From: an uncultured archaeon
GTDB taxonomy: Archaea > Aenigmatarchaeota > Aenigmatarchaeia > QMZP01 > JAFGSV01
Assembly: GCA_964611445.1 (NCBI GenBank)
Contig: CAZSYZ010000002.1
Coordinates: 1-37,780, forward strand
Reading direction: 5' to 3'
Length of the DNA: 37,780 nt
A program made the position numbers and the translations under genes. Of the stretch, positions 2,083 to 20,117 are shown piece by piece. A model generated the notes under the pieces. That model worked only from the letters and a program-made list of their open reading frames with translations, was not told the origin of the DNA and did no database searches. How positions within the stretch are numbered: the first letter of the stretch is position 1; each line of letters begins with the position of its first letter.

Positions 2083-2994
2083 CTACTTTCCCCTAAGGAC
2101 GTCCTTCATCACGGATTTCGCGTCCTCGAAGAACTTCACAAGCATGGGCTTCTCCTGATGTCGGCGGTAGTTTTCGTGCATGCACTCGATGGTCTTGCGC
2201 GCTATGTTGACCTTCGTCACGCTGCTCGCTGCCTGGAGTTCCGGATTGAGCTCTATGTTCACGACCTTCGGCTCGCCCTTGAGCGACATGTCGACCCTCA
2301 CTATCTGCGTGTCTATGGCCGCAGCCGCCTTCAGCGCCAGCTGTTTCGCCTCTACGCTGAGATTGTGCGCCTTCAGCTTTCCCGGCGAGAATATGACATC
2401 CTGCTCCTTCGTGCTTTTTTTCACTGAGGCTATGACGTCCGGGCTGGCCACGTAAGCGGAGACGAGGTCCCTCACCCGGTCCTCGATGAGGACGGGCTGC
2501 TCGAGCGACCCCAGGGCCTCGATTATGCTCTTGGCCTCGGTCCTGCTCTTCACGGTCACGCCCGTCTTCTGCGAGGGGACCCTCAGCACCACGGGGAATT
2601 CCACGGTCTCGAGGATGCTGGTCGCCGCCCTCACGGACCTCGCCAGGTGGAGGTGGAGCGTGTCCACGTCCCTCTTCCGCAGCACCGTGAGCAGGAAGAA
2701 CCTTTCGGAGGCGAGAAGGAACGCTATCGGAGGCACGGGCATGAACGTCTTCGATGGGAAGAGCGAAAGGAGCTGGTAGGCGTAGGAGTGGTACTTCCTG
2801 GGGACCCTCGGCAGTATGGCGTCGAACTTTAGCAGGTCCGAGTTCCTGTAGCTTATGCTGAAGTCGGAATTGAGCCCGACGCCTATGCTCTCAATGGGAA
2901 CGAAGAACACGGAGCCGAAACGCTTCTTGGCCTCTTCGAGCAGCTTCAGGTTGCTTCCGGTCTTTTCGTGGCCGAGTATGCAAAGACTCATCAA
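2083..2994 (-). CDS. RimK-like ATP-grasp paralog, apparently degenerate.
   Basis: A 303-aa ORF colinear with the adjacent RimK-type ligase in length and layout (N-terminal pre-ATP-grasp, central and C-terminal lobes). It does not have the clean ligase motifs of its neighbour. Confidence 0.65.
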   Translation of the reverse strand: MMSLCILGHEKTGSNLKLLEEAKKRFGSVFFVPIESIGVGLNSDFSISYRNSDLLKFDAILPRVPRKYHSYAYQLLSLFPSKTFMPVPPIAFLLASERFFLLTVLRKRDVDTLHLHLARSVRAATSILETVEFPVVLRVPSQKTGVTVKSRTEAKSIIEALGSLEQPVLIEDRVRDLVSAYVASPDVIASVKKSTKEQDVIFSPGKLKAHNLSVEAKQLALKAAAAIDTQIVRVDMSLKGEPKVVNIELNPELQAASSVTKVNIARKTIECMHENYRRHQEKPMLVKFFEDAKSVMKDVLRGK

Positions 2995-3066
2995 ATCACC
3001 GGTGCCTAATATATGCTCGGCACAGTGTTTAAAAAGATTTGCGCGTTTTGGCTTAGAAACCGTTAC

Positions 3067-3948
3067 CTATCTCCTCGTCTCTCCCCTGATGTAGTCCATT
3101 ACGCGCTGCGCCACGTTTATGTTCGTGGCCTTCTCTATGCCCTGGAGGCCGGGGTTTATGTTGACTTCGATCACGTATGCCTTCCCCTTGCTCTCGACCA
3201 TGTCTATCGCGCATATCCTGCTGTCTATGGCCCTGGCGGCCTCAATTGCTATTTCCCTCATCTCCGGATCCACTTTGAAGTCGACCCCCCTACCGCCGAG
3301 GTGGATGTTGGCCTTCTTGCTGTCCTTCCCCGCAATCCTCTTGAACGACGCTATGACCTCGTCGCCGGCAACGAATGCCCTGATGTCCTCGCCGGGATTG
3401 GGCAGGTACTCCTCGAGCAGCACCTCCTGCCTCAGGCTCTTCATGGCGTGTATGGTGGCCTTTGCGGCGTCCCTGCTCTCCATTATCATCACCCCCTCGC
3501 CACCAAAACCGGACAAGAGCTTCATTATTATGGGAAGCTTCTGCTTGTCAACGATTTTGTTTGCCGTTTCCTTCGAGCCCGTTATCCAGGTCTCGGGCAC
3601 AGGGACCCCCCTCTTGGTGAGCTCCATGAGCGTGAGAAACTTATTGTGGGCGACCAGGATTGTCGTGGCGGGATAAGGCTTATTCACACCGGATTCGTCA
3701 AGGAACCTCAGTATCGGATATCCTATGCTTGCCCTCTTCGAGTCTATCCTTGTCAGTATGTAATCGAAATCCTCAAGGTTCTTTTTGCCGTACTTGGCGG
3801 AGGCCTTCTTCCCCACGGCCAGGACCACGTCCTTTAGGGGGATGTATTCGACCTTCTTGAACTCTCTCCTGGCCTCCTCGAGAAGCCTGCGCGTCGAGTG
3901 CCCCGCGAATTCGGGGGTCGGTCCCATGATGGCAAATTTCATCGGCAT
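3067..3948 (-). CDS. RimK-family alpha-L-glutamate ligase (ATP-grasp).
   Basis: Contains KLLSGFGGEGVMIMES, DIRAFVAGDEVIASFKR and ICAIDMVESKGKAYVIEVNINPGLQGIEKATNINVA, which are typical RimK/LysX/CofF-type ATP-grasp blocks. Confidence 0.85.
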   Translation of the reverse strand: MPMKFAIMGPTPEFAGHSTRRLLEEARREFKKVEYIPLKDVVLAVGKKASAKYGKKNLEDFDYILTRIDSKRASIGYPILRFLDESGVNKPYPATTILVAHNKFLTLMELTKRGVPVPETWITGSKETANKIVDKQKLPIIMKLLSGFGGEGVMIMESRDAAKATIHAMKSLRQEVLLEEYLPNPGEDIRAFVAGDEVIASFKRIAGKDSKKANIHLGGRGVDFKVDPEMREIAIEAARAIDSRICAIDMVESKGKAYVIEVNINPGLQGIEKATNINVAQRVMDYIRGETRR

Positions 3949-6047: not shown

Positions 6048-7283
6048 GTGATAAGAAAAGATAAGCTCAGTGAGATTATTGAAAACCAAAGACGCTGGAT
6101 AACTGAAATTGACAGGGGAACCGAAAGGGAATATCTGGAAGAGGTCAGATTGACAGAAGACTTCGCTCTCGTCATTTCCGGAGTAAGGAGATGCGGTAAA
6201 AGCACTTTTCTAAGCCAAATACTGAAAAGCCGGGAAAAGTTTTATTATCTCAATCTCGAGGACCCGAACCTAACGGATTTCGAACTGAAGGATTTCATCA
6301 GGGCAGATGAGATTTTCAAAGAAAAATATGGGAAGAGAGGAGTTTATTTTTTTGACGAAATTCAGAACGTCGGTGAATGGGAAAGGTTCGTAAGACATAT
6401 CGTAGACAGAAAAGAGAAGGTCGTTTTAACAGGCTCAAACGCTTCTCTATTGAGCAGGGAACTTGGAACCAAACTGACGGGAAGGTACACAAGGATAGAA
6501 ATGTACCCCTTTTCTTACAACGAGTTTCTGAGGTTTTTCGGCATGAAGCCGTCGCCTGAATCCTATGGAAAATACCTTATGAAGGGAGGCTTTCCCCAAT
6601 TCCTGAAGAACGAAGACGAATCCATACTGCACGAACTGCTCAATAACATTGTAATGAGGGATGTTGCAATAAGGTTCGGGATAAAGAATACACACACACT
6701 CAAAAGGCTCGCGGTATGGCTTATAAGCAACACAGGAAAGGAGTTTTCTTACAATTCGCTGAAAAAGACCTTCAGCGTAAAATCTGTCCAGAGTGTAATA
6801 GACTATGTTTCTTTTTTTGAGGATGCGTATCTTGTATTCACTCTGCCGAGATTCAGCTACTCGTACAGGACCCAACAGATGAGCCCGAAAAAAATATATT
6901 CAATAGATAACGGGTTTTCCCGTGCAAACTCGGTATCGTTTTCAAAGGATATGGGGAGGATGCTCGAAAACAGCGTCTTTCTGAGCCTCAAAAGGATTTA
7001 CGGAGACGTCTTTTATTTCCAAGAGGAAGAAGAATGTGATTTTGTTGTGAAGGAAAAGAACAAAGTAAGCAGGGCGTTTCAGGTATGTTATGAGATCAAT
7101 GACGACAATGAGAAAAGGGAAATAAACGGCCTGATGGAGGCAATGGACAAATTCAACATTGAAAACGGCCTTATTCTGACGTATAACCAGGACGATGTAG
7201 TTAAAATAGGTGGCAAGAGCATCACGGTAAAGCCTGCCTGGAAATGGCTCACACAGAGAAAACATGCTGAGAAAAGCGAGTGA
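6048..7283 (+). CDS. AAA+ ATPase of the COG1373 type (AAA_14 + DUF4143) with a PD-(D/E)xK-like C-terminal region.
   Basis: Contains GVRRCGKST (Walker A), VYFFDEIQNV (Walker B) and a C-terminal EEEECDFVVKEKNKVSRAFQVCYE. The start codon is GTG. Confidence 0.85.
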   Translation: MIRKDKLSEIIENQRRWITEIDRGTEREYLEEVRLTEDFALVISGVRRCGKSTFLSQILKSREKFYYLNLEDPNLTDFELKDFIRADEIFKEKYGKRGVYFFDEIQNVGEWERFVRHIVDRKEKVVLTGSNASLLSRELGTKLTGRYTRIEMYPFSYNEFLRFFGMKPSPESYGKYLMKGGFPQFLKNEDESILHELLNNIVMRDVAIRFGIKNTHTLKRLAVWLISNTGKEFSYNSLKKTFSVKSVQSVIDYVSFFEDAYLVFTLPRFSYSYRTQQMSPKKIYSIDNGFSRANSVSFSKDMGRMLENSVFLSLKRIYGDVFYFQEEEECDFVVKEKNKVSRAFQVCYEINDDNEKREINGLMEAMDKFNIENGLILTYNQDDVVKIGGKSITVKPAWKWLTQRKHAEKSE

Positions 7284-7406: not shown

Positions 7407-8723
7407 CTATGGTTTCGGAGCGGGATTGCTCCGGCCGGCTTCCAGCAGCCATTTCCACAGCGGAATGAAAAGTATTTTCATGTTTCCTATAGTTTCTTCC
7501 TTTTCCACATCCATCGTTATAATAGTCCCTTCTTTCAGTCCGTGGAAATTCATGGCTTCCAGCAGTCCTTCAATTTCCCTCTTATAATTTTTCTCGTTCA
7601 GTTCAGTGGTCACCTGAATGGCTCCCGTCACCCTGTCCTTCTCCCTTATAAGGAAATCGCATTCATGCTTTTTCCTGTGATAGAAAACATCAGCTTTCCT
7701 TCTCTTCAACTCTATGAAAACCAGATTCTCCGCCAATTTCCCGACCTCGCCCGAAAATTTGAAACTCACGGCATTGAGAAGGCCGTTGTCGATGCAGTAT
7801 ATCTTTTTGATTGAGCCAAGCTGCTTTGTTAAAGAATAATCGTACTTCATATTCTGGAAAAAGAGATACGCATCCTCAAAATAGGATATAAATTCGATGA
7901 CCGTGTTTTTGCTTATATTGAATCCAAGAGATTTCATCTTATTGGCCAGTTTGCTGTATGAAATTTCATGCGATGCCGATTCAAACAGCAGCTTGGCAAG
8001 AATCTGAAGTTTCTTGATTTCTTTTATGCCATACCTCTCCACAATGTCCTTGAAAATCATGGACTGCAGATAACCCTGCAGAATCGTTTCTTTCGGGACA
8101 TTTTCATTTATCAGGATTGACGGGTAACCTCCTCCGAAGAGATATGAATCGAATGCCTTCTTTATTTTGAACCTTTTTTTGCTGTACGAAATTTCCCTGG
8201 CGTCGCGGGGAATCCCTTTCCAGTCCAGAAATTCCGTGAAGCTCAGGGGGAAGACCTCGGTGTTGAAGATTCTCCCTCTCAGCTTGGTGGATATTTCCCT
8301 GCTCAGCATTTTTGAAGAAGACCCCGTAATAACTATTTTCAGGTTTTTATTCATGTCGTACAACCTTCTGACCCAGACATCCCAATCCCTCACGTTCTGC
8401 AATTCATCCAGAAAGATGTATATCTTCTGTTTTTCGTTCAAATCGGACAATTCGTAAAAGGTATCCAACAGCCTGTCGAGGTCTTCCGCACCAGCCCCGA
8501 GCAGCTTTTCGTCCTCAAAGTTTATATAGAGGACATTGTCCTTTTTCACACCGTCCTTCAGGAGAGACCTTATCTTCTGGAAGCAGAGGTACGTCTTTCC
8601 CGCCCTTCTGGGCCCAGTGACGGTTGATATGAAATCGTGGTCCATGCTTATGCCCGTTTCCCTGTGAAAAACCTCGGGAATCTGGAATTCCTGCCACTGC
8701 ACTATTATTTTCTTGTAATCCAT
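7407..8723 (-). CDS. AAA+ ATPase of the COG1373 type (AAA_14 + DUF4143) with a PD-(D/E)xK-like C-terminal region.
   Basis: Contains GPRRAGKTY (Walker A), IYIFLDELQNV (Walker B) and a C-terminal KHECDFLIREKDRVTGAIQVTTE. It is a paralog of 6048..7283. Confidence 0.85.
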   Translation of the reverse strand: MDYKKIIVQWQEFQIPEVFHRETGISMDHDFISTVTGPRRAGKTYLCFQKIRSLLKDGVKKDNVLYINFEDEKLLGAGAEDLDRLLDTFYELSDLNEKQKIYIFLDELQNVRDWDVWVRRLYDMNKNLKIVITGSSSKMLSREISTKLRGRIFNTEVFPLSFTEFLDWKGIPRDAREISYSKKRFKIKKAFDSYLFGGGYPSILINENVPKETILQGYLQSMIFKDIVERYGIKEIKKLQILAKLLFESASHEISYSKLANKMKSLGFNISKNTVIEFISYFEDAYLFFQNMKYDYSLTKQLGSIKKIYCIDNGLLNAVSFKFSGEVGKLAENLVFIELKRRKADVFYHRKKHECDFLIREKDRVTGAIQVTTELNEKNYKREIEGLLEAMNFHGLKEGTIITMDVEKEETIGNMKILFIPLWKWLLEAGRSNPAPKP

Positions 8724-8791
8724 ACCAATTCACTGAACAAATTATCCATAATTTGTATTATTCACTGAACATATTTATAAATATTACCTTC

Positions 8792-8928
8792 AGGGCCACT
8801 GCTGGAACTCCTACCACAAGGAGAAGCGCATGAAGAGCATCCTGAGAGGCATGAAGGAGAGCGGGGAAGAGGCCGAGGGCGCGGAAGTGAAAAGGAAGGG
8901 CCCGCTGACGCTCGGGGACTTCTGCTGA
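8792..8928. repeat. Helicase 3'-end repeat, copy 3 (137 bp including a TGA).
   Basis: In the helicase frame it encodes ..HCWNSYHKEKRMKSILRGMKESGEEAEGAEVKRKGPLTLGDFC*, against EGYYWTSYHKEKRMKSILRGMKESGEEAEGAEEKRKGPLTLGDFY* in the gene. Confidence 0.9.
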
Positions 8929-8944
8929 CTTCTATAATCGTTTA

Positions 8945-10840
8945 CTACACCGGCGTCTCCACAGGCGCTTTAGCATTGTGGGCTAGTATCCCCTCTGCGA
9001 AATAGTTGTTCGGGCTTGCAAGCTTAAGGTTGTAGACTGTTCCCAGTTCCTCCTTTTGGAACTTGAGCGAAACTATCTTTGACCACTTCACCGAGTCTCC
9101 CTGAGAGACCAGAACATGCTCGCCTTCCTCAAGGTTCTGCACAGGCTCGTATCTTTCCGAGCCGTCTTTCATCGCGTATAGCAGATGGATGCCCGTAACC
9201 CTCGCTTCCTGACCGTCTGCAGTCGTCAGGACATAATACCCGTCATTCGGCACAACTCTGTTCTCTTTGGTGTGGACGAGCAGTTCTTCTACCCGGGATT
9301 CCGTGATTTCCCCGGTTTCGTCGTTGTATGAAATGACGACGTCGCCGGACTCGATGTCCTCTATGCTTTTCAGGCCGCCGTCAGCCATCAAGATTCTCGT
9401 GCCGGGGAGGAAGCACTCAGCGCATGAGCCACCGACACAGATATGGGTCTCCTGGCTGCAGTCGCATATTCCGTCTGGTGGAATATCGCAGTCAAGCCAG
9501 CCTCCACTCAGGCAGTCACATACTCCACCTTCACAGAGCGCACCATACGGACAGCTATTGCTGCATGAACCGCAGTGGTCAGGGTCGGTATGAAGGTCTA
9601 CACATTCCCCCCCACAGCACGCGCCATAGCAGTTGCATATCCCTTGGCAGTTTCTAAATCCAAAGTCGCAGATGCACTGTCCGTTGGAGCAGTGCTGGTT
9701 GGGGCCGCACGTTTTTGTCACTGTCCCTCCGCAATTGTCGTAGAATGTCCCGCACTCAGGCAGGTCTCCCGCTTCGCCGCATAAAAGCACGCCCCTGAGA
9801 TATATGTCACCGCCGCTGGTTATCCATGCAACAGGGTCGCCGTAGGAATTAATCACAAAATTCCCCGAACTGCTGGGAGTTGCAGCCGTGTTTCCATAAA
9901 GGCCGCCCCTCTTATAGACATCGCCGGTTGAGCCGTCAACCCAGAATACAGTGGTCCCGGCAGAATTCTGTATTATGAAATTGCCATTGCCTGAAGGATT
10001 TGAGAACGTTGCCTTGAGCATTCCACCTATCCACATATATCCGTCGCTGCCTATACTCAGCAGGTCACTGCCAGCGCTGTTCTTTAATACGAATTTAGGC
10101 GGCGAGGTCCTCCATACGCCTAAATAGCATCTTATAGTTTCTCCGCTTATCGTCATCTGATATCCGTCAGGCCTGCACGTCCCGCTGTAGACGCAGTCGT
10201 ACTCGCTGTCGCAGCATGCGTCATCACTCGCGCTGCCCGTGCACCCTTCCTCACATTTCCTGTATTTATAATATTCACCCTTATCGTCGCCGCAGCAGGT
10301 AGTAGTTGCCACATCGCCCAAGCTGGAGATGGCCCAGTGCTCTTCAAGAGGATAGTAGCAGTCGCAAGCATCTTCGCTCGTATCTATGTCGGCCACCTCA
10401 GATGGCCAGTATGGTAATACACACCCACCTTTACCGCAGCTGCTTTGCGTGTAGTAGTTCCCTTCATAGCACTGGTCCTCATCGCTGCACGGACCGGATA
10501 CGCAGGCACCGTCGCTGCAGTAAGTGCCGTAATTGCACCTGTGCAGTATCAATTCCAATGGAGAATTAGGTACGCATGCCCCTTCGCATGTTCCGGCCGT
10601 TTCAATGTATGTGCAGATATCGGTGTCGTCGCATACCGTTTCATATGTGCAATCTGCCCAGATATCGTAAACGCAGAGTTCCTGTAAACGGAGGCAGTTC
10701 CAGCACGCGGGATCACCGCAGTCGCTGTCAGTTTTGCATTGAGAATGAACGGGAGCCGGGTAAGCTATCGAATTCGGGAGAAAGACGATTAGGATAAAAA
10801 GAAATGCCGCACATCCCGCAAGAACCCCATAACGCCACAT
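8945..10840 (-). CDS. Secreted cysteine-rich protein with three internal ~35-aa repeats and a C-terminal 147-aa Hint domain (nt 8975..9415).
   Basis: - N-terminal signal/TM segment VLAGCAAFLFILIVFLPNSIA.
- Many CxxC/EGF-like Cys clusters.
- Three repeats: FVLKNSAGSDLL.., FIIQNSAGTTVF.., FVINSYGDPVAW..
- Hint blocks: CFLPGTRILMADGG (A), VTGIH (TxxH, B), VYNLKLASPNNYFAEGILAHN (F/G).
- Only AKAPVETPV follows the terminal Asn.
- The ATG at 10840 overlaps the upstream stop (TGATG). Confidence 0.8.
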   Translation of the reverse strand: MWRYGVLAGCAAFLFILIVFLPNSIAYPAPVHSQCKTDSDCGDPACWNCLRLQELCVYDIWADCTYETVCDDTDICTYIETAGTCEGACVPNSPLELILHRCNYGTYCSDGACVSGPCSDEDQCYEGNYYTQSSCGKGGCVLPYWPSEVADIDTSEDACDCYYPLEEHWAISSLGDVATTTCCGDDKGEYYKYRKCEEGCTGSASDDACCDSEYDCVYSGTCRPDGYQMTISGETIRCYLGVWRTSPPKFVLKNSAGSDLLSIGSDGYMWIGGMLKATFSNPSGNGNFIIQNSAGTTVFWVDGSTGDVYKRGGLYGNTAATPSSSGNFVINSYGDPVAWITSGGDIYLRGVLLCGEAGDLPECGTFYDNCGGTVTKTCGPNQHCSNGQCICDFGFRNCQGICNCYGACCGGECVDLHTDPDHCGSCSNSCPYGALCEGGVCDCLSGGWLDCDIPPDGICDCSQETHICVGGSCAECFLPGTRILMADGGLKSIEDIESGDVVISYNDETGEITESRVEELLVHTKENRVVPNDGYYVLTTADGQEARVTGIHLLYAMKDGSERYEPVQNLEEGEHVLVSQGDSVKWSKIVSLKFQKEELGTVYNLKLASPNNYFAEGILAHNAKAPVETPV

Positions 10841-12021
10841 CAACTCAACCTTATGACTATATTGCTTCCAGGTAATGCATATATGTAGGCTGTATCTAAT
10901 CTGTTGACATTTTCGATATTATTGGTGTTCATGTCGAGGTTCCCGCCCACGATCTCAAGCCTGTCGTCAAGACTTGTCGTTCCTATACCGACCCGCCCCT
11001 GGCCGTCAACCACAAGACGAGTAGTGTATGAACCTCCGCTGTAGCTTCTCACATAGAATGCGCCGCCGGAAGAGTGTGTGATATAATTGCTTGCCCCCCC
11101 GAGATTGCTGGTCCCGTATATTGAGGATTCTATCCTTACACCTACCGCCGAGCCCGAATCAATATGAAGCTTTGCGTCAGGAGATGTTTCTCCTATGCCG
11201 ACCCTGTTGTTTGCCGCATCTATGTACAGCGTGCCCGAGTCTACGTTGAGGTCGCCGTCAAGCGTTATGGAATCGGCCAGCTGCGCACCGTTTATTGAAT
11301 CAGAGACGACCGAAAGCGTCGGAGTCGAGCCCTCTCCCGTTCCGCTACCGCTCAGGAACCCTATTGTCGCCGAGTCCGTTATCGTCGCCACGTAATCCCC
11401 TGTCGTATGCGCCCCAAGGGATATGAGGTCGGTCAATGACGTCGCTCCTGTGCCGCCGCTTGCTATCGGAAGGGTGGCGCTCCTGAGCACTCCGGAGCCA
11501 TCATAATACAAGGCGCCGTTACTGGTTCCCGTGAAGTCATCCACCCTGTCCCCCGCGGCCGGGTAGTATGCAATCTTGTTTGCCGCGCCCGCGTTCACAG
11601 CGCCCTGCCCGCCCCCTATGCAGGCCGTCGCATTGCATATGGTGCCCGTGGCCTGTATGTTGCCCTGGACGTAAACGTTCCCTGAAACGCTGAGCCGCGA
11701 AGTTCCGGGAGTAGCTGTCCCGATGCCGACGTTGCCGCCGGTCGATATGTATATGTCAGGCCCTCCATTCGAATCGCCATACAGCCTGAGGTCATTTAAA
11801 CCCATTATCTGGTCTGCACCAGTTATGTCGGCGTCGTTGAGCGTTAGCCCGTTCGCTCCGTTCACTGTAAGGCTCCCGGGAAACGTCCATGCACCGCCTG
11901 CACCGCCCCCGAAAGTTCCCGGAAGTATCTGGCTGGCGGGATGCGACTGAGCCTGAACGCCTGCGCATGAGAATAGAACCATGACTCCAATGACGGCCAG
12001 AGAGAGGAATATCCGCCTCAT
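10840..12021 (-). CDS. Secreted fibre-like protein (tail-fibre-like GNVGIGT repeats), paralog 1.
   Basis: Signal peptide MRRIFLSLAVIGVMVLFSCAGVQAQS. It has Gly/Thr/Ser/Asn-rich beta-type composition and repeated GGNVGIGTATPG / RVGIGETSPDAKLHI / RVGIGTTSLDDRLEI motifs, as seen in phage tail-fibre-type proteins. Confidence 0.75.
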   Translation of the reverse strand: MRRIFLSLAVIGVMVLFSCAGVQAQSHPASQILPGTFGGGAGGAWTFPGSLTVNGANGLTLNDADITGADQIMGLNDLRLYGDSNGGPDIYISTGGNVGIGTATPGTSRLSVSGNVYVQGNIQATGTICNATACIGGGQGAVNAGAANKIAYYPAAGDRVDDFTGTSNGALYYDGSGVLRSATLPIASGGTGATSLTDLISLGAHTTGDYVATITDSATIGFLSGSGTGEGSTPTLSVVSDSINGAQLADSITLDGDLNVDSGTLYIDAANNRVGIGETSPDAKLHIDSGSAVGVRIESSIYGTSNLGGASNYITHSSGGAFYVRSYSGGSYTTRLVVDGQGRVGIGTTSLDDRLEIVGGNLDMNTNNIENVNRLDTAYIYALPGSNIVIRLS

Positions 12022-12171: not shown

Positions 12172-14277
12172 TTATCCAGAGCCGCAGGTTATCCAGTCTA
12201 TGAAATTCATGCTCGTTCCACAGGTTGCCCTGTACCATTCCCCGTTGGTGGCATCGCCGTCGGAGTCGTACCAGCCGCAGTCTATGTCATAAGCGTAACT
12301 GAAGCTTGCCGAGTGTGAACTGACATGGTTCAGCCCGAACTCGCTGCACCAGGCGGCTCTCGTGTCCCCGTCGGTCTGTTCGTGCCTCATAAGCCGTTCG
12401 GCCTCGGTATGGCCTTCGTAGTTAGGCCTGAAGTAGCCGTCCCATCCTGGCATGGGGCTCGAGGAGAATACGAGTTCCCTTCCTTGGACCACTTGTGGTA
12501 CATTGAAAGTGATACTTCCGTCACTGTTCTCTGTACAACTTTCCCAGATGAGGAATTCATCCCCGTTCCCGGCTTCATCTACCCTAAGCCCGTACTGGTT
12601 TATGAAGCCTCCATAGAGTGGTTGTCCTGAGAATATGCCGCCTTCCGTATAATGGCCCCACACGTCGAAATTGAAGCCCATGAATTTCGGGCACCTCGCA
12701 CGCCTCTTTATCACATTTACGGTGAAGCAGTTCTCTCCGTTCTCATCGCAGTACTCTGTCGCTCCGACCTTCCCGCCGACGTCCAGCATGAGGTCGGAAG
12801 AGCGGCTGGTTGTCCCAATGATAGCATAGCTTCCGGTCCTTAGGTAGTCGGAAATATAGCCCGGCCCGGTCACGTGAATCCCCCAAGGACCAGGACTTCC
12901 TTGGCTTCCTGCCCTTATGCCGCCTGTCACCAAGACGTTTCCCCTAACGTCCAACTTCTGCGTCGGTTGGTCTATCCCTATTCCCACGTTTCCGTTCAGG
13001 CGGTATATGTTGCTGGTTCCATCGTAGAGCGACCAGTAGCTGGTCCCCCCTCCTCCTACGTTATCAAGACAATTACCATAGCCGTCGCATACAGTTCCGC
13101 TGGCTTTTATGTCACCCTGGACGTCAAGCTCCACCCCGCTCGCGGGCGCTTTCCCTATGCCGACGTTCCCGCCATCCCGGACCGTAAACACATTCGTGAT
13201 GCCGTCGTAAAGATTGAAAATGTCCCCAGTCCCGTCCTGTACCACTCTCAGCTTTCCGCTACCGTACAATGATCCTACGCCGACGTTCCCTCCACCGGGT
13301 TGCAGGATGATGTCAGCTGTTGGGTTGTTGATGAGGAAATCGTCGTCAGCGTTGGTATACAACTGGCCGACTTCTGCCGACTGCGACCATACCCCTATCT
13401 CCCTGTAGTTCGAACCGTCGTCGAGATAGAAGTCGACATCATTTATGTATGTGTTGCTGTCACCGAAATCGACATGCGTGTAATCGTTGAAGCCGATCCG
13501 GAAATTGACAGGATACATGTAGAAGTTGTCTATGGAGTTCTGGACGTAGACGTTCCCTGTGCCGCTTCCCGACTGAACGAAGTTCAGATACCCGTCGCTT
13601 GAAGAATGGTATAATCTCACCCCGTGGCTGTTGTCACCGTCCTGGAAGTATAACGAATTGCTTCCCACCCTCAGGTCTCCTGTCATGGTGTCGCCGTCTA
13701 TGTCGACCCAGTCATCAGATACGACGAGATTCTCGCCGCTGCATCCTATGTGGTCATCAGCCGTGCCGGTCACATCCGAACAATCGAAAGAAATGGTGCC
13801 GGTAGTGGTGATGGGACCGCCTCCTATCCCCACACCAGTATCAATCTGGGTAACGGTACCGGTCCCGGTCGTGCTTATACACAGCCCGCCGCCATCGCAT
13901 ACCTCCCCAGTCGCCTGTATGTTGCCCTGGACGTACACATTCCCCGAAACATTGAACCGTGCCGTTCCCGGAACCGCCGTCCCGATACCCACATTACCAC
14001 CCGTCGTTATGTATATGTCAGGCCCCCCCGTAGAATCCCCGTACAGCCTGAGGTCATTAAAGCCCATTATCTGGTCGGCACCCGTTATGTCGGCGTCGTC
14101 GTCAAGCGTTATGCCGTTCACCCTAAGCCCCCCGAGGAACCTCCATGAATCGACAGATGTGCCCCCGAAAGTTCCCGGAAGTATCTGGCTGGCGGGATGC
14201 GACTGAGCCTGAACGCCTGCGCATGAGAATAGAACCATGACTCCAATGACGGCCAGAGAGAGGAATATCCGCCTCAT
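12172..14277 (-). CDS. Secreted fibre-like protein, paralog 2 (701 aa), with a distinct C-terminal globular region.
   Basis: Its first 39 aa are identical to paralog 1, followed by about 85 aa of diverged homology. It has GGNVGIGTAVPG, GGNVGVGSLYGSGKL, GGNVGIGKAPASGVEL and NGNVGIGIDQPTQKLDV repeats. The unique C-terminal ~200 aa are rich in W, Y and C. Confidence 0.75.
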   Translation of the reverse strand: MRRIFLSLAVIGVMVLFSCAGVQAQSHPASQILPGTFGGTSVDSWRFLGGLRVNGITLDDDADITGADQIMGFNDLRLYGDSTGGPDIYITTGGNVGIGTAVPGTARFNVSGNVYVQGNIQATGEVCDGGGLCISTTGTGTVTQIDTGVGIGGGPITTTGTISFDCSDVTGTADDHIGCSGENLVVSDDWVDIDGDTMTGDLRVGSNSLYFQDGDNSHGVRLYHSSSDGYLNFVQSGSGTGNVYVQNSIDNFYMYPVNFRIGFNDYTHVDFGDSNTYINDVDFYLDDGSNYREIGVWSQSAEVGQLYTNADDDFLINNPTADIILQPGGGNVGVGSLYGSGKLRVVQDGTGDIFNLYDGITNVFTVRDGGNVGIGKAPASGVELDVQGDIKASGTVCDGYGNCLDNVGGGGTSYWSLYDGTSNIYRLNGNVGIGIDQPTQKLDVRGNVLVTGGIRAGSQGSPGPWGIHVTGPGYISDYLRTGSYAIIGTTSRSSDLMLDVGGKVGATEYCDENGENCFTVNVIKRRARCPKFMGFNFDVWGHYTEGGIFSGQPLYGGFINQYGLRVDEAGNGDEFLIWESCTENSDGSITFNVPQVVQGRELVFSSSPMPGWDGYFRPNYEGHTEAERLMRHEQTDGDTRAAWCSEFGLNHVSSHSASFSYAYDIDCGWYDSDGDATNGEWYRATCGTSMNFIDWITCGSG

Positions 14278-14312: not shown

Positions 14313-15029
14313 TCATTCATTCATGTTTCTGACTTCGCACTTCTTGAAGTTTCCGCTTATTTTCTCTCTCAGTCCTGCGAAGAACGCGTCAGGATACGTG
14401 GACACTTTTGCGAACTCCGGGTCTATCATGCTGTCCCTAGGAATGAACTTCTGGAGCACGTACTTACTCGAGCCCTTCAGCTGCCTCGCTATCTCCAGGA
14501 TGTCCTCCTCGCTGTGCATTCCCGGCACGACCGTGGTCCTGAACTCGTAATCGATGCCGCTGCCCCTCAGCATCTCCACGCTTTTCAGGACATTCCCGAA
14601 GAGCCTTTTGTCGCTTGTCGCGGCGGCCTTCGTATACTTCTCCCTTTTCAGCGACGTCTTGATGTCCATGGCCACGAAATCCACGAGCTTGTCCCCTATG
14701 AGGGCTTTCAGCATCACCGGATTCGTGCCGTTTGTCTCCAGTCCTGCAAGAAGCCCGAGCTTTTTGACCTTGCCGTAGAAACCAGGCAGGTCCATGTGCA
14801 TGGTCGGCTCGCCTCCCGTGACTATCACCGCCTGGTAGAGCTTCCTCCGCGCTTTCAGGAAATCCAGCACCTCTTCCTCGGTTATCCTTTCCAGCTTGTC
14901 CGGCCTGAGCACAAGGTCGCGGTTGTAGCAGAAAGGGCACCTGAAGTTGCACCCGCCGGTGAAGAGCACCGTGGAGACCTTTCCGGGATACTCCACGAGC
15001 GAAGTCTTCTGCCACCCTCTGAATTCCAT
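14313..15029 (-). CDS. nrdG: Anaerobic ribonucleotide reductase activating protein (radical SAM).
   Basis: Contains the GGCNFRCPFCYN CxxxCxxC cluster, is about 235 aa, and is the last gene of the nrd operon. The start could be the ATG at 15029 or the GTG at 15038. Confidence 0.85.
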   Translation of the reverse strand: MEFRGWQKTSLVEYPGKVSTVLFTGGCNFRCPFCYNRDLVLRPDKLERITEEEVLDFLKARRKLYQAVIVTGGEPTMHMDLPGFYGKVKKLGLLAGLETNGTNPVMLKALIGDKLVDFVAMDIKTSLKREKYTKAAATSDKRLFGNVLKSVEMLRGSGIDYEFRTTVVPGMHSEEDILEIARQLKGSSKYVLQKFIPRDSMIDPEFAKVSTYPDAFFAGLREKISGNFKKCEVRNMNE

Positions 15030-15060
15030 GCGTATCACGACCCAATTTTAACCGAGAGAA

Positions 15061-15745: not shown

Positions 15746-18700
15746 TCACTTACCTCCTTTTGCTATTTTTACGAACCCCGACTCTTCATCGCATTTGGGG
15801 CAGTACTCATGCTCGCCCTCCAGATACCCGTGGAACGGGCATATGCTGAACGTCGGGGTCAGGGTGAAATAAGGAAGGTGGAAGTTCTCCGCTATGGTCT
15901 TCACCAGGGCCTTCGTGGCCTCCGCGCTCGGGAGCTTCTCGCCTATGAAGCCGTGTAAAACCGTGCCACCAGTATACTTTACCTGGAGCGGGTCCTGCAG
16001 TTCGAGCGCCTGGAAGATGTCGTCGGTGAAGCCCACGGGCAGCTGAGTGCTGTTCGTGTAGTAGGGCTTGGCGTCCTTCTTCCCGTACTTCTCCAGGTTG
16101 TACACCTTCATCTTCGGGAAGAGCTTCATGTCTATCCTCGCCAGCCTGTAGGACGTCCCCTCGGCGGGCGTGGCCTCGAGGTTGAATATGTCCCCTGTCT
16201 CATCCTGGAACTCCATGAGCTTTTTCCTCATGAAGTCGAGCACCTTTATCGCAAAGTCCCTGCCTTGCGGCTGGGTCATGTCATGCCCCGAGAAGTTCAG
16301 CAGCGCGTCGTTCATGCCGATTATGCCTATGGTCGAGAAGTGGTTCTTCCAGAAGCTTCCCTGCGACTTCTTTATGCCGCGAAGGTAGAACCTGCTGTAA
16401 GGGTAAAGGCCGCTGTCCGTGAACTTCTCCAAGATTTCCCTCTTTATTATGAGGCTCTCCTTGGCTAGCTCCATCCTTCTTTCGAGGATGTCGAAGAAGT
16501 CCTCCTCGTTCTCGGCCTCGTACGCGATCCTCGGCAGGTTGAGCGTCACCACGCCGACGGAATTTCCGCACCAGCAGACCCTCCCGTTTCTTCTGACGAA
16601 GAGTGTATTGTTTTCCACTTCGCAGCAATACACCTTCCCCTTGTAATCAACTTTCTTAATACTGCCCTCTCTCAATCTGTAGTGCCTTGTTTTTTGAACT
16701 CCGATAGTATAACAAATTCCTGCGTTGATTTTTCTGCCTTTTATTTCAGAGACTCTCCCTTTCCTGGCTGTAAGAGTACCAAGCCATCCCAATTTCATAA
16801 TGATTTCCTGCAAATCGTCTGCCAGTTTCTTTGAAGATGTCCAGTAATTGATTTGCCCGTTGGTTTTTCTTATGTGGCCATCACCCTTTACCATCCAGTC
16901 AAACAGAATCTTAAGCTGTCTCTTGCTCAGACCTTTTATTTCGGGCGGGACAAATTTTGTGTATTTATTGCCAAACTGCCGCAGGTAAGTCCAGAGCTGC
17001 TTGTTGCAGATTATAAAACTGTGGTTTTCCTCATAGTAATTGAAAGGCAGTTCATCCAAGATTTCCCTGAATTCCTTCCTTTTTCTCTTATTGATTTGGA
17101 CGACTGTAACCCTGTACCCGTGCCGCTTGGCAATTTTTTCGTTGTCGGTGCAGCCTTCAGCCAGCCAAAATCCAAAAAATCTTAACCAGTCACCCATTTT
17201 TACCCTCAAAGAGTCCCTGATCACTGAATAGGGGGTCCTGCCCTGCCTGCCATATTTTATAAATTCGATTCCGGGCAATACAAACCACTCTTTATCCTCC
17301 CCATCCCAAATACCTTGCTTCGGAATACGGTGATTATTAACATCAAAGTCTTTCGCTTCAACAAATTTTCTTTTGTTCTTGTAAGTCTGATCCACAACCA
17401 TCCTATGATTAGGCGTGACCAGCAGATCTAAGGATTTTGTCCTGAAGTTGTACATCTGTCCATCGTGGTCATATTTGAAAAGTCTTTTTGGTTTATGGAT
17501 TTCAATTTCGTTTTTCTCGTTCAGAGTAAACACCGCGTCTTTCTTAGTCAAATCCTTGAAGAATTTCCACCCGCCTTCAGTCAATATTTCGGTTTTTTCG
17601 TCATAACACCCCGTAAGAGGATGGGAGCCGAACAGCCCGCCTCCCCTCTTCCTCAGTTCCCGGTTGTCGATACGCAATCGGCAGCACATGCTCCTGACAT
17701 CATCCGGTTTCATATCCGAGTTTATGAAGTTGGCGAAATAGGGGATGCCGTATTTTGCGGTCATCTCCCAGATGGCCTGTAGCTCTTTCTTGTCCCACGG
17801 AAAGTCCTTTGTAACGTTGTATGTAGGTATGGGGAACGTGAAAGGTCTGCTTGAAGCGTCACCCGCAAGCATGGTTTCGGCGAACGCCCTGTTCAGCATG
17901 TCCATCTCCTCCTGGTAATCACCGTAAGTGGTGTCCTGGGGCTTGCCGCCTATTATGACAGGCTGACCTTTCATGAAACTTGGTGGTGTAAGATCCATAG
18001 TCAGATTAGAAAATGGAGTTTGGAAACCGACACGAGTCGGCACATTCATGTTGAACAGGAACTTCTGCATGGACTGCTTCACCTGCTCATACTTCAGCTT
18101 GTCCACCCGTATGAAGGGCGCCAGGAGCGTGTCGAAGTTGGACAGGGCCTGCGCCCCAGCGGCCTCGCCCTGCAGCGTGTACATGAAGTTGACTATCTGC
18201 ATGAGAGCGACGTCGAAGTGCTTAGCCGGCTTGCTTTCTATCTTGCCGCGGACTCCCCTGAAACCGGACATCAGCAGGTCTTCCAGGTCCCATCCTACGC
18301 AGTTGTGGTTCCACATGCCATTTACAACAAGTGTACTTGAATTCGTTGTTATATCATATATGTATTTGTCCGTTGTCTTTGTGCTTTCATTGTTAAGAAT
18401 CTTGTGCCAGCCAGCGCATTCTGCTCTCCATGCCTTGCCTGACAAACCTGCAGAATTGTATTTAAAGGATGGCAATGACTTCCCCTTCAATGTCCTGAAG
18501 CTTATTCCGAACAATGGATAATTCTGGACAATTCTCCTGCCTTTAAATTCGCGTTCCGTTCCGACTCCTTCAATGTTCCTGTCCCTAGCGACGAACCCAA
18601 GTAGATTCAGAACAGTTGCCATCTGTTCAAGCATGGTCCTGCTCGAGGTTCTCACATCGATGGAGGTCCTACTGCTGTTTATTGATCCGTCACCGTCTAT

Positions 18701-20107: not shown

Positions 20108-20117
20108 CACACCTTCC

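What the first reader, a model, noticed from the sequence alone, without database searches (positions are those of the whole stretch)
8945..10840. Secreted cysteine-rich archaeal protein ending in a Hint (intein/Hedgehog-type) autoprocessing domain with almost no C-extein
**Seen directly.** The 631/632-aa protein has an N-terminal signal/TM segment and two long Cys-rich regions with dozens of Cys in CxxC/EGF-like spacing. It also has three ~35-aa repeats (F-x-hydrophobic-x-N-S-x-G .. G-D-x-Y-x-x-G). Its last 156 aa form a compact 147-aa Hint domain:
- Cys1 in CFLPGTRILMADGG
- a TxxH block (VTGIH)
- a terminal ..GILAHN

Only nine residues (AKAPVETPV) follow, starting with Ala, so canonical splicing is not possible. 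There is no endonuclease insert.

**Established knowledge.** Hint domains in this position either auto-cleave and esterify the N-terminal part to another molecule (Hedgehog) or release C-terminal modules (bacterial intein-like domains, polymorphic toxins).

**Inference.** The domain may process or anchor the Cys-rich ectodomain, or attach it to a lipid or surface acceptor. Alternatively it may be a polymorphic-toxin-like protein whose C-terminal module was lost; the cassette boundary lies only 17 bp downstream of the stop. The gene is translationally coupled (TGATG) to the upstream fibre-like gene, which suggests the two surface proteins work together.
Basis: partly seen in the sequence, partly recalled or inferred. 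Interest (0 to 1): 0.75.

Follow-up and report, generated by a model that had tools for sequence, protein, structure and literature searches.

The report
Archaeal surface protein ending in self-cleaving Hint
A secreted, cysteine-rich surface protein of a DPANN archaeon ends in an intact intein/Hedgehog-type self-cleaving domain with almost nothing after it, and this layout is a conserved, selected design shared by a whole subfamily of uncultivated-microbe proteins, not the wreck of a toxin gene.

Summary
Window 8945..10840 (-) encodes a 631-aa protein with these parts: signal peptide, Cys-rich region 1, three ~35-aa beta repeats, Stig1/MXAN_6577-like Cys-rich region 2, a 147-aa mini-Hint (aa 476-622) and a 9-aa tail. 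Pfam Intein_splicing, Hint and PT-HINT all pass their gathering cut-offs. An AlphaFold2 model (pLDDT 92) matches mini-inteins, BIL domains and Hedgehog-C. Cys1, block B TxxH, block F YN and the terminal HN are all present, and +1 is Ala.

The host is a Candidatus Aenigmatarchaeota (DPANN) archaeon. The only ortholog (59% identity, syntenic, also coupled to a fibre-like gene) likewise stops 6 residues after HN. The Hint is the most conserved part of the protein (79% identity, dN/dS about 0.12). The 13 most similar Hint domains in 1.84 billion representatives are all C-terminal, with an HN-x-K-x-x-P tail.

So this is not a decayed polymorphic toxin and not a Hedgehog-type Hog domain, because it has no sterol/adduct region. 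It fits an A-type BIL-like autoprocessing domain. Most likely it forms a thioester at Glu475-Cys476 and removes itself from the ectodomain. What resolves the thioester (water, the tail's amine or Lys, or a partner molecule) is unknown.

Verdict: a new variant of a known kind, of moderate interest.

The parts
8945..10840 (-). Whole gene, 631 aa from the ATG (an alternative TTG lies at 10843); stop TAG at 8945-8947 followed by TAA
   Evidence: identical to NCBI-derived protein P0001
10763..10840 (-). Predicted Sec signal peptide or signal anchor, aa 1-26 (MWRYGVLAGCAAFLFILIVFLPNSIA)
   Evidence: Sequence inspection; helix 3-19 in the AF2 model; conserved in P0002. No dedicated predictor was run.
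10127..10738 (-). Cys-rich region 1, aa 35-238 (28 Cys). It includes a CCGDD...DDACCD module shared with Asgard and other archaeal proteins (P0012, P0005).
9785..10096 (-). Three ~35-aa beta-strand repeats, aa 249-352 (F-x-h-x-N-S-x-G ... G-D-x-Y-x-x-G)
   Evidence: 61% identical to P0002; beta-hairpins in the low-confidence model
9416..9781 (-). Cys-rich region 2, aa 354-475 (24 Cys), made of Stig1 / MXAN_6577-like repeats (C-x-D-L-x-T-D-x-x-H-C-G-x-C). It ends C473-A-E, directly abutting Cys1.
   Evidence: Pfam Stig1 25.8 bits against a cut-off of 24.1; NCBIfam NF041328 weak hit; BLAST to P0003-P0016
8975..9415 (-). Mini-Hint (A-type BIL-like) autoprocessing domain, aa 476-622. Cys1 codon is 9413-9415, block B T549-x-x-H552 is 9185-9196, and the terminal H621-N622 has its Asn codon at 8975-8977.
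   Evidence: Pfam; family alignment A2; AF2 pLDDT 92; Foldseek against the PDB
8948..8974 (-). 9-aa tail AKAPVETPV (+1 Ala, +2 Lys, Pro-rich). It fits the subfamily tail motif HN-x-K-x-x-P.
10840..12021 (-). Upstream fibre-like secreted protein (393 aa) with GNVGIGT motifs, translationally coupled through the TGATG overlap
   Evidence: PHROG tail-fibre motif hits; the coupled arrangement is conserved in L001
12172..14277 (-). Paralogous fibre-like secreted protein (701 aa) that shares its first 130 aa with the 393-aa gene (81% identity); first gene of the three-gene surface cluster
   Evidence: the L001 counterpart is a 477-aa collagen-repeat protein

Best explanation
The gene encodes a Sec-exported, disulfide-rich surface protein of a DPANN (Aenigmatarchaeota) archaeon. 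Its C-terminal 147 residues are a catalytically intact, A-type BIL-like Hint domain that acts as a single-turnover, self-removing pro-domain.

Proposed sequence of events:
1. **Inferred.** The signal peptide is removed, and the 52 ectodomain cysteines pair into disulfides. This leaves Cys476 as the odd free thiol, possibly held transiently in a C473-x-x-C476 disulfide 'redox trap'.
2. **Inferred from conserved residues and known Hint chemistry.** Cys476, helped by T549/H552, carries out an N-to-S acyl shift on the Glu475-Cys476 bond, producing a thioester.
3. **Inferred.** The thioester is resolved and the roughly 47-kDa ectodomain separates from the Hint. Asn622, with H621, can cyclise and cut off the 9-residue tail.

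Because +1 is Ala, no branched intermediate and no canonical splicing are possible. The outcome is either cleavage or, as shown for A-type BILs and Tetrahymena BIL2, aminolysis of the thioester by a free amine (the tail's alpha-amine, Lys624, or an amine on another molecule).

The protein probably works with the translationally coupled fibre-like protein as part of a surface appendage. The nature of the acceptor is the open point.
For: **Hint identity**
- Three Pfam Hint-family models score above their gathering cut-offs, and NCBIfam intein N- and C-terminal models hit.
- The AF2 model has pLDDT 92 and pTM 0.87.
- Foldseek TM scores of about 0.75-0.79 match PhoCDC21 and NpuDnaB inteins, Tetrahymena BIL2 6y75, C. 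thermocellum BIL 2lwy and Hedgehog 1at0.

**Catalytic residues**
- C476, F477, T481, T549, H552, Y603, N604, H621 and N622 fall in columns that are at least 90% conserved in 45 homologous domains.
- Of 294 domains from the top representatives, 286 start with Cys and 275 end in HN. Only 29 have C/S/T at +1, while 184 have Lys.

**Selection**
- Against the ortholog, the Hint region is 79% identical with dN/dS about 0.12, compared with 45-61% identity elsewhere in the protein.

**The architecture is not accidental**
- The ortholog P0002 ends HN+VKPIPK.
- The downstream DNA is homologous non-coding sequence.
- The 13 most similar Hint domains are all terminal, against 41 of 293 overall.
- A second DPANN-type locus, L017, has two such genes.

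**Chemistry precedents**
- A-type BILs with His-Asn and no +1 nucleophile cleave at both ends, and can ligate through the freed amine (PMC4031507; PMC5874633).
- Tetrahymena BIL2 forms a Lys isopeptide (PMC8616854).

**Organism**
- FttA is 82-88% identical to Aenigmatarchaeota MAGs.
- An anaerobic NrdD sits in the window, consistent with a reducing habitat that would keep Cys1 free.
Against: - There is no biochemical evidence at all: cleavage, the thioester and the acceptor are all inferred.
- The -1 residue is Glu, not the Gly or Ser typical of the family.
- No flexible linker precedes Cys1, which could slow or gate the acyl shift.
- The CxxC arrangement could lock Cys1 in a disulfide outside the cell.
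- Retention of HN when the tail is only 1-25 residues has no obvious purpose under a pure N-cleavage model.
- Only one true ortholog was found.
- The full-length structure could not be modelled (pLDDT 37).
- The signal peptide was not tested with a dedicated tool.
Confidence: 0.6

Rival explanations
1. Thioester-driven covalent attachment, working like Hedgehog or BUBL. The Hint does not merely hydrolyse off. It transfers the ectodomain's C-terminal Glu475 carbonyl to a specific nucleophile on another molecule: a Lys or N-terminus of the coupled fibre protein, an envelope or S-layer component, a lipid, or the host-cell surface. This would anchor or cross-link the Cys-rich head without ATP or a sortase.
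For: - The Hint sits at the extreme C-terminus of a secreted protein, as in Hog proteins.
- Translational coupling to a fibre-like gene is conserved in both loci.
- Relatives fuse fibre-type N-terminal parts directly to a terminal Hint (P0030, P0087).
- Tetrahymena BIL2, a top structural match, conjugates its N-terminal flank to lysines of other proteins.
- No other C-terminal anchor (TM segment, PGF-CTERM) is present.
Against: - There is no adduct-recognition region: only 9 residues follow the Hint, and the Pfam Hint profile is matched only over positions 11-136 of 213.
- No acceptor has been identified.
- The model does not explain the conserved HN and the x-K-x-x-P tail.
- Hydrolysis is the default fate of BIL thioesters in vitro (PMC7664689).
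Confidence: 0.17
2. BIL-type 'mini-splicing'. Asn622 cyclisation frees the tail. The tail's alpha-amine (or Lys624 epsilon-amine) then attacks the Glu475 thioester, so the Hint is excised and the short Pro-rich tail is ligated to the ectodomain.
For: - The mechanism has been proposed and shown for A-type BILs that lack a +1 nucleophile (PMC4031507).
- HN is conserved even in terminal domains.
- Lys at +1 or +2 is near-universal: 184 of 294 domains have it at +1, and 13 of 42 terminal tails have it at +2, including most of the closest terminal relatives.
- The K624 and P626 positions are shared with the ortholog.
Against: - Cleavage products dominate over splicing in characterised BILs.
- Tails can be as short as a single Lys and are otherwise not conserved, so the ligated product would gain little.
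- There is no evident benefit to the host.
Confidence: 0.1
3. Non-catalytic Hint. The domain is kept as a structural, oligomerisation or binding module at the tip of the protein, and the catalytic residues persist only through recent descent.
For: - There is no experimental evidence of cleavage.
- The -1 Glu and the absent linker are atypical for the family.
- Hint-like folds are used non-catalytically elsewhere; for example, the AXH module appears among the Pfam hits.
Against: - Every catalytic position is retained in both orthologs even though dS exceeds 1.
- The same positions are retained across the terminal-Hint subclade.
- Purely structural retention would not be expected to preserve Cys1, TxxH and HN together.
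Confidence: 0.08
4. Degenerate polymorphic toxin. This was a PT-HINT releasing domain whose downstream toxin cassette was deleted, leaving a remnant.
For: - Pfam PT-HINT is just above its gathering score (29.4 against 27.7 bits).
- One relative is annotated 'polymorphic toxin-type HINT domain-containing protein' (P0020).
Against: - No toxin domain and no immunity gene follow the Hint.
- The ortholog has the same end.
- The downstream DNA aligns between the loci as non-coding sequence plus a small convergent ORF.
- There is strong purifying selection on the Hint.
- The 13 nearest domains are all terminal.
- PT-HINT is defined by its position just before a toxin domain (PMC3482391).
Confidence: 0.03

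Closest known systems
A-type bacterial intein-like (BIL) domains (Amitai et al. 2003; Dassa et al. 2004; C. thermocellum BIL structure 2lwy)
   Same: - Hint fold: 2lwy is 29% identical with TM 0.75-0.87.
- Cys1, block B TxxH and a C-terminal His-Asn, with no +1 nucleophile.
- No homing endonuclease.
- Sits in a secreted, poorly conserved protein, not in an essential enzyme.
- Expected to give N- and C-terminal cleavage rather than canonical splicing.
   Different: - Archaeal (DPANN) host.
- Placed at the extreme C-terminus with only a 6-25-residue tail, rather than between two substantial flanks.
- Belongs to a subclade in which terminal placement is the rule (13 of 13 nearest domains).
- Membership in the original A-type sequence profile could not be tested.
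Hedgehog / Hog C-terminal autoprocessing domains
   Same: - The Hint is the last domain of a signal-peptide-bearing secreted protein.
- A Cys-Phe start.
- The predicted chemistry begins with the same N-to-S acyl shift, which detaches the N-terminal part.
- 1at0 and 6tyy are structural matches (TM about 0.76).
   Different: - No sterol or adduct recognition region: 9 residues follow the Hint, where Hog proteins have about 60-70.
- The -1 residue is Glu, not Gly.
- It retains the intein/BIL terminal His-Asn that Hog domains lack.
- Prokaryotic host.
Tetrahymena BUBL BIL2 (PDB 6y75 / 6tmm)
   Same: - Among the best sequence and structure matches.
- A BIL with Cys1 and a terminal Asn but no +1 nucleophile.
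- It shows that a BIL thioester can be resolved by a lysine amine to give an isopeptide conjugate.
   Different: - Eukaryotic and cytoplasmic, flanked by ubiquitin-like domains on both sides.
- Here the N-flank is a disulfide-rich ectodomain and the C-flank is a 9-residue tail.
PT-HINT domains of polymorphic toxins (Zhang et al. 2012; MafB, CdiA, Rhs, UmbC 8w20)
   Same: - The Pfam PT-HINT model matches.
- Sec-exported multidomain surface protein with fibre-like partners.
- UmbC's Hint is a sequence match.
   Different: - The defining C-terminal toxin domain and the adjacent immunity gene are absent, in both orthologs and in the nearest 13 relatives.
Class 1 mini-inteins
   Same: Blocks A, B, F and G are all present, and the size of 147 aa is typical of mini-inteins. 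The best Foldseek hits are mini-inteins.
   Different: - No +1 Cys/Ser/Thr.
- No real C-extein.
- Not inserted in a conserved site of a housekeeping protein. The window's NrdD does carry true inteins for comparison.

Membership tests
Hint (Hedgehog/intein) superfamily | Sequence match to curated Hint-family profiles above threshold | tested here: met
   Bit scores against Pfam gathering cut-offs: Intein_splicing 40.7 vs 35.8, Hint 39.7 vs 29.7, PT-HINT 29.4 vs 27.7
Hint (Hedgehog/intein) superfamily | Horseshoe all-beta Hint fold | tested here: met
   AF2 pLDDT 92 and pTM 0.87. Foldseek probability 1.00 and TM 0.75-0.79 to inteins, BILs and Hedgehog-C. This is a predicted structure, not an experimental one.
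Class 1 intein | Cys/Ser1, block B TxxH and a terminal His-Asn | tested here: met
   C476, T549/H552 and H621/N622
Class 1 intein | Nucleophilic Cys/Ser/Thr at +1 of a C-extein that is ligated to the N-extein | tested here: not met
   +1 is Ala623 and only 9 residues follow. The ortholog has Val at +1.
A-type BIL domain | Hint domain with a conserved C-terminal His-Asn but no +1 nucleophile (PMC4031507, PMC7765530) | tested here: met
   HN followed by Ala. In the family, 275 of 294 domains end in HN and only 29 of 294 have C/S/T at +1.
A-type BIL domain | Located in variable regions of non-conserved, typically secreted, proteins; no homing endonuclease | tested here: met
   Secreted Cys-rich protein with a single detectable ortholog; 147-aa domain without an insert
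A-type BIL domain | Match to the A-type BIL sequence motifs or profile of Amitai et al. 2003 | not testable with these tools
   No BIL-A profile is in the libraries, and the primary papers are not held. The nearest proxy is 2lwy at 29% identity.
A-type BIL domain | Auto-cleavage at the N- and/or C-terminal junction | not testable with these tools
   Needs expression and SDS-PAGE or mass spectrometry
Hedgehog-type Hog domain | Hint module followed by a sterol/adduct recognition region (SRR/ARR) (PMC2362128) | tested here: not met
   The Pfam Hint profile is matched only over positions 11-136 of 213, and 9 residues follow Asn622
Hedgehog-type Hog domain | Gly-Cys-Phe cleavage junction | tested here: not met
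   The junction is Glu475-Cys476-Phe477, and Glu-Cys-Phe in the ortholog
Polymorphic toxin with PT-HINT | HINT positioned just before a C-terminal toxin domain (PMC3482391) | tested here: not met
   No domain follows the Hint in P0001, in P0002 or in the 13 nearest relatives
Polymorphic toxin with PT-HINT | Adjacent immunity gene and/or silent toxin cassettes downstream | tested here: not met
   Downstream are a 32-aa convergent ORF and AAA_14/DUF4143 ATPase genes. The intergenic DNA is conserved between the loci.
Stig1 / MXAN_6577-like cysteine-rich repeat proteins | Profile match to the Cys-rich repeat | tested here: met
   Pfam Stig1 scores 25.8 against 24.1 for aa 398-443. The NCBIfam NF041328 hit is far below its cut-off. 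BLAST finds repeated matches to P0003-P0016.

The most novel reading that the evidence does not exclude
In DPANN archaea (and the relatives that carry terminal or tandem 'VHNK-Gly-CF' Hint domains), terminal BIL-like Hints act as built-in, ATP-independent protein ligases. Each delivers a one-shot thioester at the C-terminus of a secreted head domain, which is then captured by an amine or hydroxyl on the coupled fibre protein, the cell envelope or the host cell. This would be a prokaryotic, sortase-free counterpart of Hedgehog cholesteroylation or BUBL ubiquitination, used to assemble or anchor surface appendages of episymbionts. It might also be gated by a Cys(-3)-Cys1 redox trap.
Probability: 0.15. 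Interest if true: 0.85.

Novelty: new variant of a known kind. Interest (0 to 1): 0.55.

Why it matters
- **Position of the domain.** Hint domains are known as inteins (selfish), as toxin-releasing peptidases, and as the Hedgehog lipidation engine. This is a conserved, selected subfamily in which an intact BIL-type Hint is the last domain of secreted surface proteins of uncultivated, host-dependent archaea. That places a Hedgehog-like topology in prokaryotes.
- **Evolution.** It bears on how Hog-type C-terminal autoprocessing arose.
- **DPANN biology.** DPANN cells depend on surface contacts with hosts, yet their surface proteins are almost entirely uncharacterised. A self-activating thioester at the end of a disulfide-rich head, encoded next to fibre genes, gives a concrete and cheaply testable hypothesis for how such appendages mature or attach.
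- **Biotechnology.** Small Cys1/Asn Hints with no extein requirements could be useful as cleavage or ligation tags.

Tried and rejected
1. **Full-length AF2 from a single sequence.** The model was unusable (pLDDT 37), so nothing is claimed about the ectodomain fold.
2. **Word-indexed search with the Hint region alone.** It returned nothing, not even the query itself, and was a wasted search. The same search with alignment A2 returned mostly unnamed short metagenomic proteins, so no taxonomic census was possible.
3. **GTDB genome scan with the P0001/P0002 alignment.** It found no further orthologs.
4. **Exact look-up of P0001's own contig.** It is not on record.
5. **Cluster look-ups of the closest terminal-Hint relatives.** All were unnamed singletons, apart from a Nanoarchaeota hit and an Omnitrophota hit.
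6. **Phage lead from phrog_21587.** The tblastn hits were helicase inteins plus one internal Hint in a Microcystis phage hypothetical protein. This gave no support for a phage tail-fibre origin.
7. **PDB sequence search with the ectodomain (aa 1-476).** No hits.
8. **Promoter and terminator scans.** Counts were at the level of the shuffled controls, and the scan is bacterial-type, so it is uninformative for an archaeon.
9. **Cassette or lost-module idea.** Rejected from the downstream DNA alignment.
10. **Cys(-3) as a general family feature.** Rejected: only 11 of 286 domains have it. It is specific to this orthologous pair and a few others.
11. **Primary BIL papers (PMID 12492854 and 15150275).** Not held, so reviews were used instead.
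Full report

Yes. The minus-strand ORF 8945..10843 is present. From the ATG at 10840 it encodes 631 aa, identical to an NCBI-derived protein (P0001).

A script confirmed 54 cysteines, and none of them lies inside the Hint:
- one in the N-terminal hydrophobic segment (C10);
- 28 in aa 35-238;
- 24 in aa 354-473;
- Cys476, which opens the motif CFLPGTRILMADGG.

The script also confirmed VTGIH (T549/H552), GILAHN (H621/N622), the nine-residue tail AKAPVETPV and a double stop. The upstream gene's TGA overlaps this gene's ATG as TGATG. The three ~35-aa repeats are at aa 249-283, 286-321 and 326-352.

**2. Is it a Hint domain?**

*Sequence.* Three Pfam models exceed their gathering scores: Intein_splicing (E=2.7e-10), Hint (5.2e-10) and PT-HINT (1.1e-6). 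NCBIfam's intein N- and C-terminal models also hit.

*Conservation.* An exhaustive HMMER scan of 1.84 billion representatives with aa 470-631 gave 5,991 hits at E<=1e-3. In an alignment of 45 cropped homologous domains (A2), the columns conserved at 90% or more are exactly the canonical catalytic and structural positions, and the query has all of them:
- Cys1-Phe and the block A Thr;
- block B T-x-x-H;
- block F Y-N;
- block G H-N.

*Structure.* With that alignment AlphaFold2 gave a confident all-beta model (pLDDT 92, pTM 0.87). Foldseek against the PDB returned mini-inteins (PhoCDC21, NpuDnaB, Ssp DnaB), the Tetrahymena BUBL BIL2 domain, the C. thermocellum BIL domain (29% identity) and the Hedgehog autoprocessing domain, all at probability 1.00 and TM about 0.75-0.79. 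The domain is 147 aa with no endonuclease insert.

**3. Context and organism**

The window is archaeal chromosome. It encodes FttA/aCPSF1, a proteasome subunit, an intein-containing anaerobic NrdD with its activase, FeoAB and RimK-type ligases. FttA is 82-88% identical to several Candidatus Aenigmatarchaeota MAGs, so the host is a DPANN archaeon, probably an anaerobe.

The gene is the last of a three-gene, same-strand cluster of secreted proteins:
- a 701-aa fibre-like protein (12172..14277);
- a 393-aa fibre-like protein (10840..12021), which shares its first 130 aa at 81% identity with the 701-aa gene;
- the Hint protein.

The only close homolog is P0002 (739 aa, 59% identity). It lies in a syntenic JGI contig (L001) with this gene order: radical-SAM, a collagen-repeat secreted protein, a 366-aa fibre-like protein, the Hint protein (coupled by a start/stop overlap), AAA_14/DUF4143, helicase, RimK. 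The coupling to a fibre-like gene is therefore conserved.

**4. Is the missing C-extein an accident?**

No. Four independent lines of evidence agree.
- **(a) Same end in the ortholog.** P0002 ends ...GILAHN-VKPIPK, six residues after Asn.
- **(b) No deleted sequence.** The DNA after the stop aligns between the two loci as non-coding sequence, a small conserved convergent ORF and the conserved promoter region of the AAA_14 gene. There is no trace of a deleted coding module.
- **(c) Strong constraint.** Nei-Gojobori analysis by region shows the Hint is the most constrained part of the gene: 79% amino-acid identity, dN 0.13, dS about 1.1 and dN/dS about 0.12. The other regions are 45-61% identical.
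- **(d) Terminal relatives.** Individual Hint domains from the best 152 representatives were ranked by similarity to the query. The top 13 all lie within 6-23 residues of their protein's C-terminus, against 41 of 293 overall. These closest relatives share an insertion (LLVHT-x-EN...W) and mostly a tail of the form HN-x-K-x-x-P.

A second DPANN-type archaeal contig (L017) carries two such genes in a tight cluster of secreted proteins. Each has a signal peptide with a 'GNPGH' motif, a beta-rich part, a small Cys-rich module, a Gly linker and a terminal Hint. The same post-signal motif (PNPGH-x-A-x-QI-x-PGTF) opens the fibre-like genes of the window and of L001. Some relatives (P0030, P0087) join fibre-type sequence directly to a terminal Hint. 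Fibre-like or Cys-rich surface proteins combined with a terminal Hint therefore form a recurrent design, whether fused or encoded side by side.

**5. What kind of Hint is it?**

Across 294 complete domains from the top representatives:
- 286 begin with Cys and 275 end in His-Asn;
- +1 is Lys in 184, and Cys/Ser/Thr in only 29;
- 128 are followed by another Hint within 15 residues (tandem arrays 'VHNK-(G)n-CF'), 124 by other sequence, and 42 are terminal.

This is the published functional definition of A-type BIL domains: a Hint with a C-terminal His-Asn, no +1 nucleophile, in variable secreted proteins. Such domains cleave at either junction and are occasionally ligated through the amine freed by Asn cyclisation (PMC4031507; PMC5874633; PMC7765530; PMC7664689).

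- **Hog membership fails.** The Pfam Hint profile is matched only over its Hint portion (positions 11-136 of 213). Nine residues follow the domain where a sterol/adduct recognition region should be, and -1 is Glu, not Gly.
- **Polymorphic-toxin membership fails.** PT-HINT is defined by lying just before a toxin domain (PMC3482391), and neither a toxin nor an immunity gene is present.
- **Class 1 intein membership fails** on the +1 nucleophile and on the lack of a real C-extein.

**6. Mechanism (inferred)**

After Sec export and signal-peptide removal, the 52 ectodomain cysteines can all pair. The count is even here, and likewise 58 in P0002, which leaves Cys476 as the odd thiol.

Cys476 with T549/H552 would convert the Glu475-Cys476 peptide bond into a thioester. 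Resolving that thioester detaches the ectodomain from the Hint. Asn622 with H621 can excise the tail.

With Ala at +1, the possible outcomes are:
- hydrolysis, meaning simple self-removal of a pro-domain;
- aminolysis by the tail's alpha-amine or by Lys624 (BIL-type ligation). Tetrahymena BIL2 shows that Lys isopeptide formation is possible (PMC8616854);
- capture by a nucleophile on another molecule.

I rate an active, self-removing BIL-type Hint at about 0.6. Specific transfer to a partner gets about 0.17, and the other readings less.

One specific feature is that Cys1 forms a CxxC with the last ectodomain Cys (C473-A-E-C476, and C-E-E-C in P0002). A Cys(-3)-Cys1 disulfide is a documented intein 'redox trap' (Callahan et al. 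2011, as summarised in PMC3922620). It is uncommon in this family (11 of 286 domains), so it may gate activity in this lineage. This is speculative.

**7. Novelty and score**

The fold, the chemistry and the 'no +1 nucleophile' condition are known. The following are not described in the literature I could search, although that library is incomplete and the primary BIL papers were not held:
- a conserved subclade in which an intact BIL-type Hint is the terminal domain of secreted proteins;
- its occurrence in DPANN archaea next to fibre-like genes;
- the conserved HN-x-K tail.

I class this as a new variant of a known kind, with interest 0.55. The most novel surviving reading, a built-in thioester ligase for assembling or anchoring episymbiont surface structures, has a probability of about 0.15 and would be of high interest.

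Noticed in passing
window 8830..8928 (+); L001 6155..6280 (-): There is a conserved small convergent ORF between the Hint gene and the AAA_14 gene. The window copy reads MKSILRGMKESGEEAEGAEVKRKGPLTLGDFC*, and the L001 copy reads ...MKSTLKCMKGDGEAHEEKPAGRKGTLEDFC*. The N-terminus (MKS-L--MK) and the C-terminus (KG-L-DFC) are shared. It ends 17 bp from the Hint gene's stop. Its function is unknown, and it could instead be a conserved non-coding element.
   Followed up: partly
relatives P0017 (1288 aa, Nanoarchaeota MAG), P0028 (5631 aa, 10 matched stretches), P0018, P0021 and others: Many large proteins carry tandem arrays of complete Hint domains joined head-to-tail by 'VHNK-(G)n-CF'. Of 294 domains, 128 are followed by another Hint within 15 aa. 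If all were active, such a protein would cut itself into pieces. I found no description of this in the searchable literature.
   Followed up: partly
window 10840..12021 (-) and 12172..14277 (-); L001 1272..2705 and 2790..3890; L017 5847..9179: The secreted fibre-like proteins share a post-signal-peptide motif: PNPGH-x-A-x-(Q/M)I-x-PGTF, which appears here as QSHPASQILPGTFGG. They also share GNVGIGT fibre motifs. The two window paralogs are 81% identical over their first 130 aa and then diverge completely, giving a variable-tip architecture. The 393-aa protein and its L001 counterpart share a C-terminal ...VIRLS(S) end.
   Followed up: partly
window 9413..9424 (-), aa 473-476: Cys1 of the Hint forms a CxxC with the last ectodomain cysteine (C-A-E-C here, C-E-E-C in the ortholog). 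This is the same Cys(-3)/Cys1 geometry as the documented intein redox trap. Only 11 of 286 family domains have a Cys at -3.
   Followed up: partly
window 15746..20110 (-): The anaerobic ribonucleotide reductase NrdD (1454 aa) is interrupted by intein sequence, including LAGLIDADG endonuclease domains. It is a canonical intein in the same window, next to its radical-SAM activase (14313..15038) and a dCMP deaminase.
   Followed up: no
window 6048..7283 (+): A second AAA_14/DUF4143 ATPase gene lies in a low-GC stretch (0.41 against about 0.55 elsewhere). It is in the opposite orientation and is absent from the syntenic L001 locus, so it is probably a recent insertion or duplication.
   Followed up: no
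L017 4478..5797 and 8001..9179: A second archaeal (DPANN-like) contig has two terminal-Hint genes in one six-gene cluster of secreted proteins. Both have a small Cys-rich module and a Gly linker before the Hint, and tails that begin LK.
   Followed up: partly
tool behaviour: The word-indexed protein search with the 162-aa Hint region returned no hit at E<=1e-8, not even the query's own full-length protein, which the same tool had found with the full-length query. Negative results from that tool with short queries should not be trusted.
   Followed up: no
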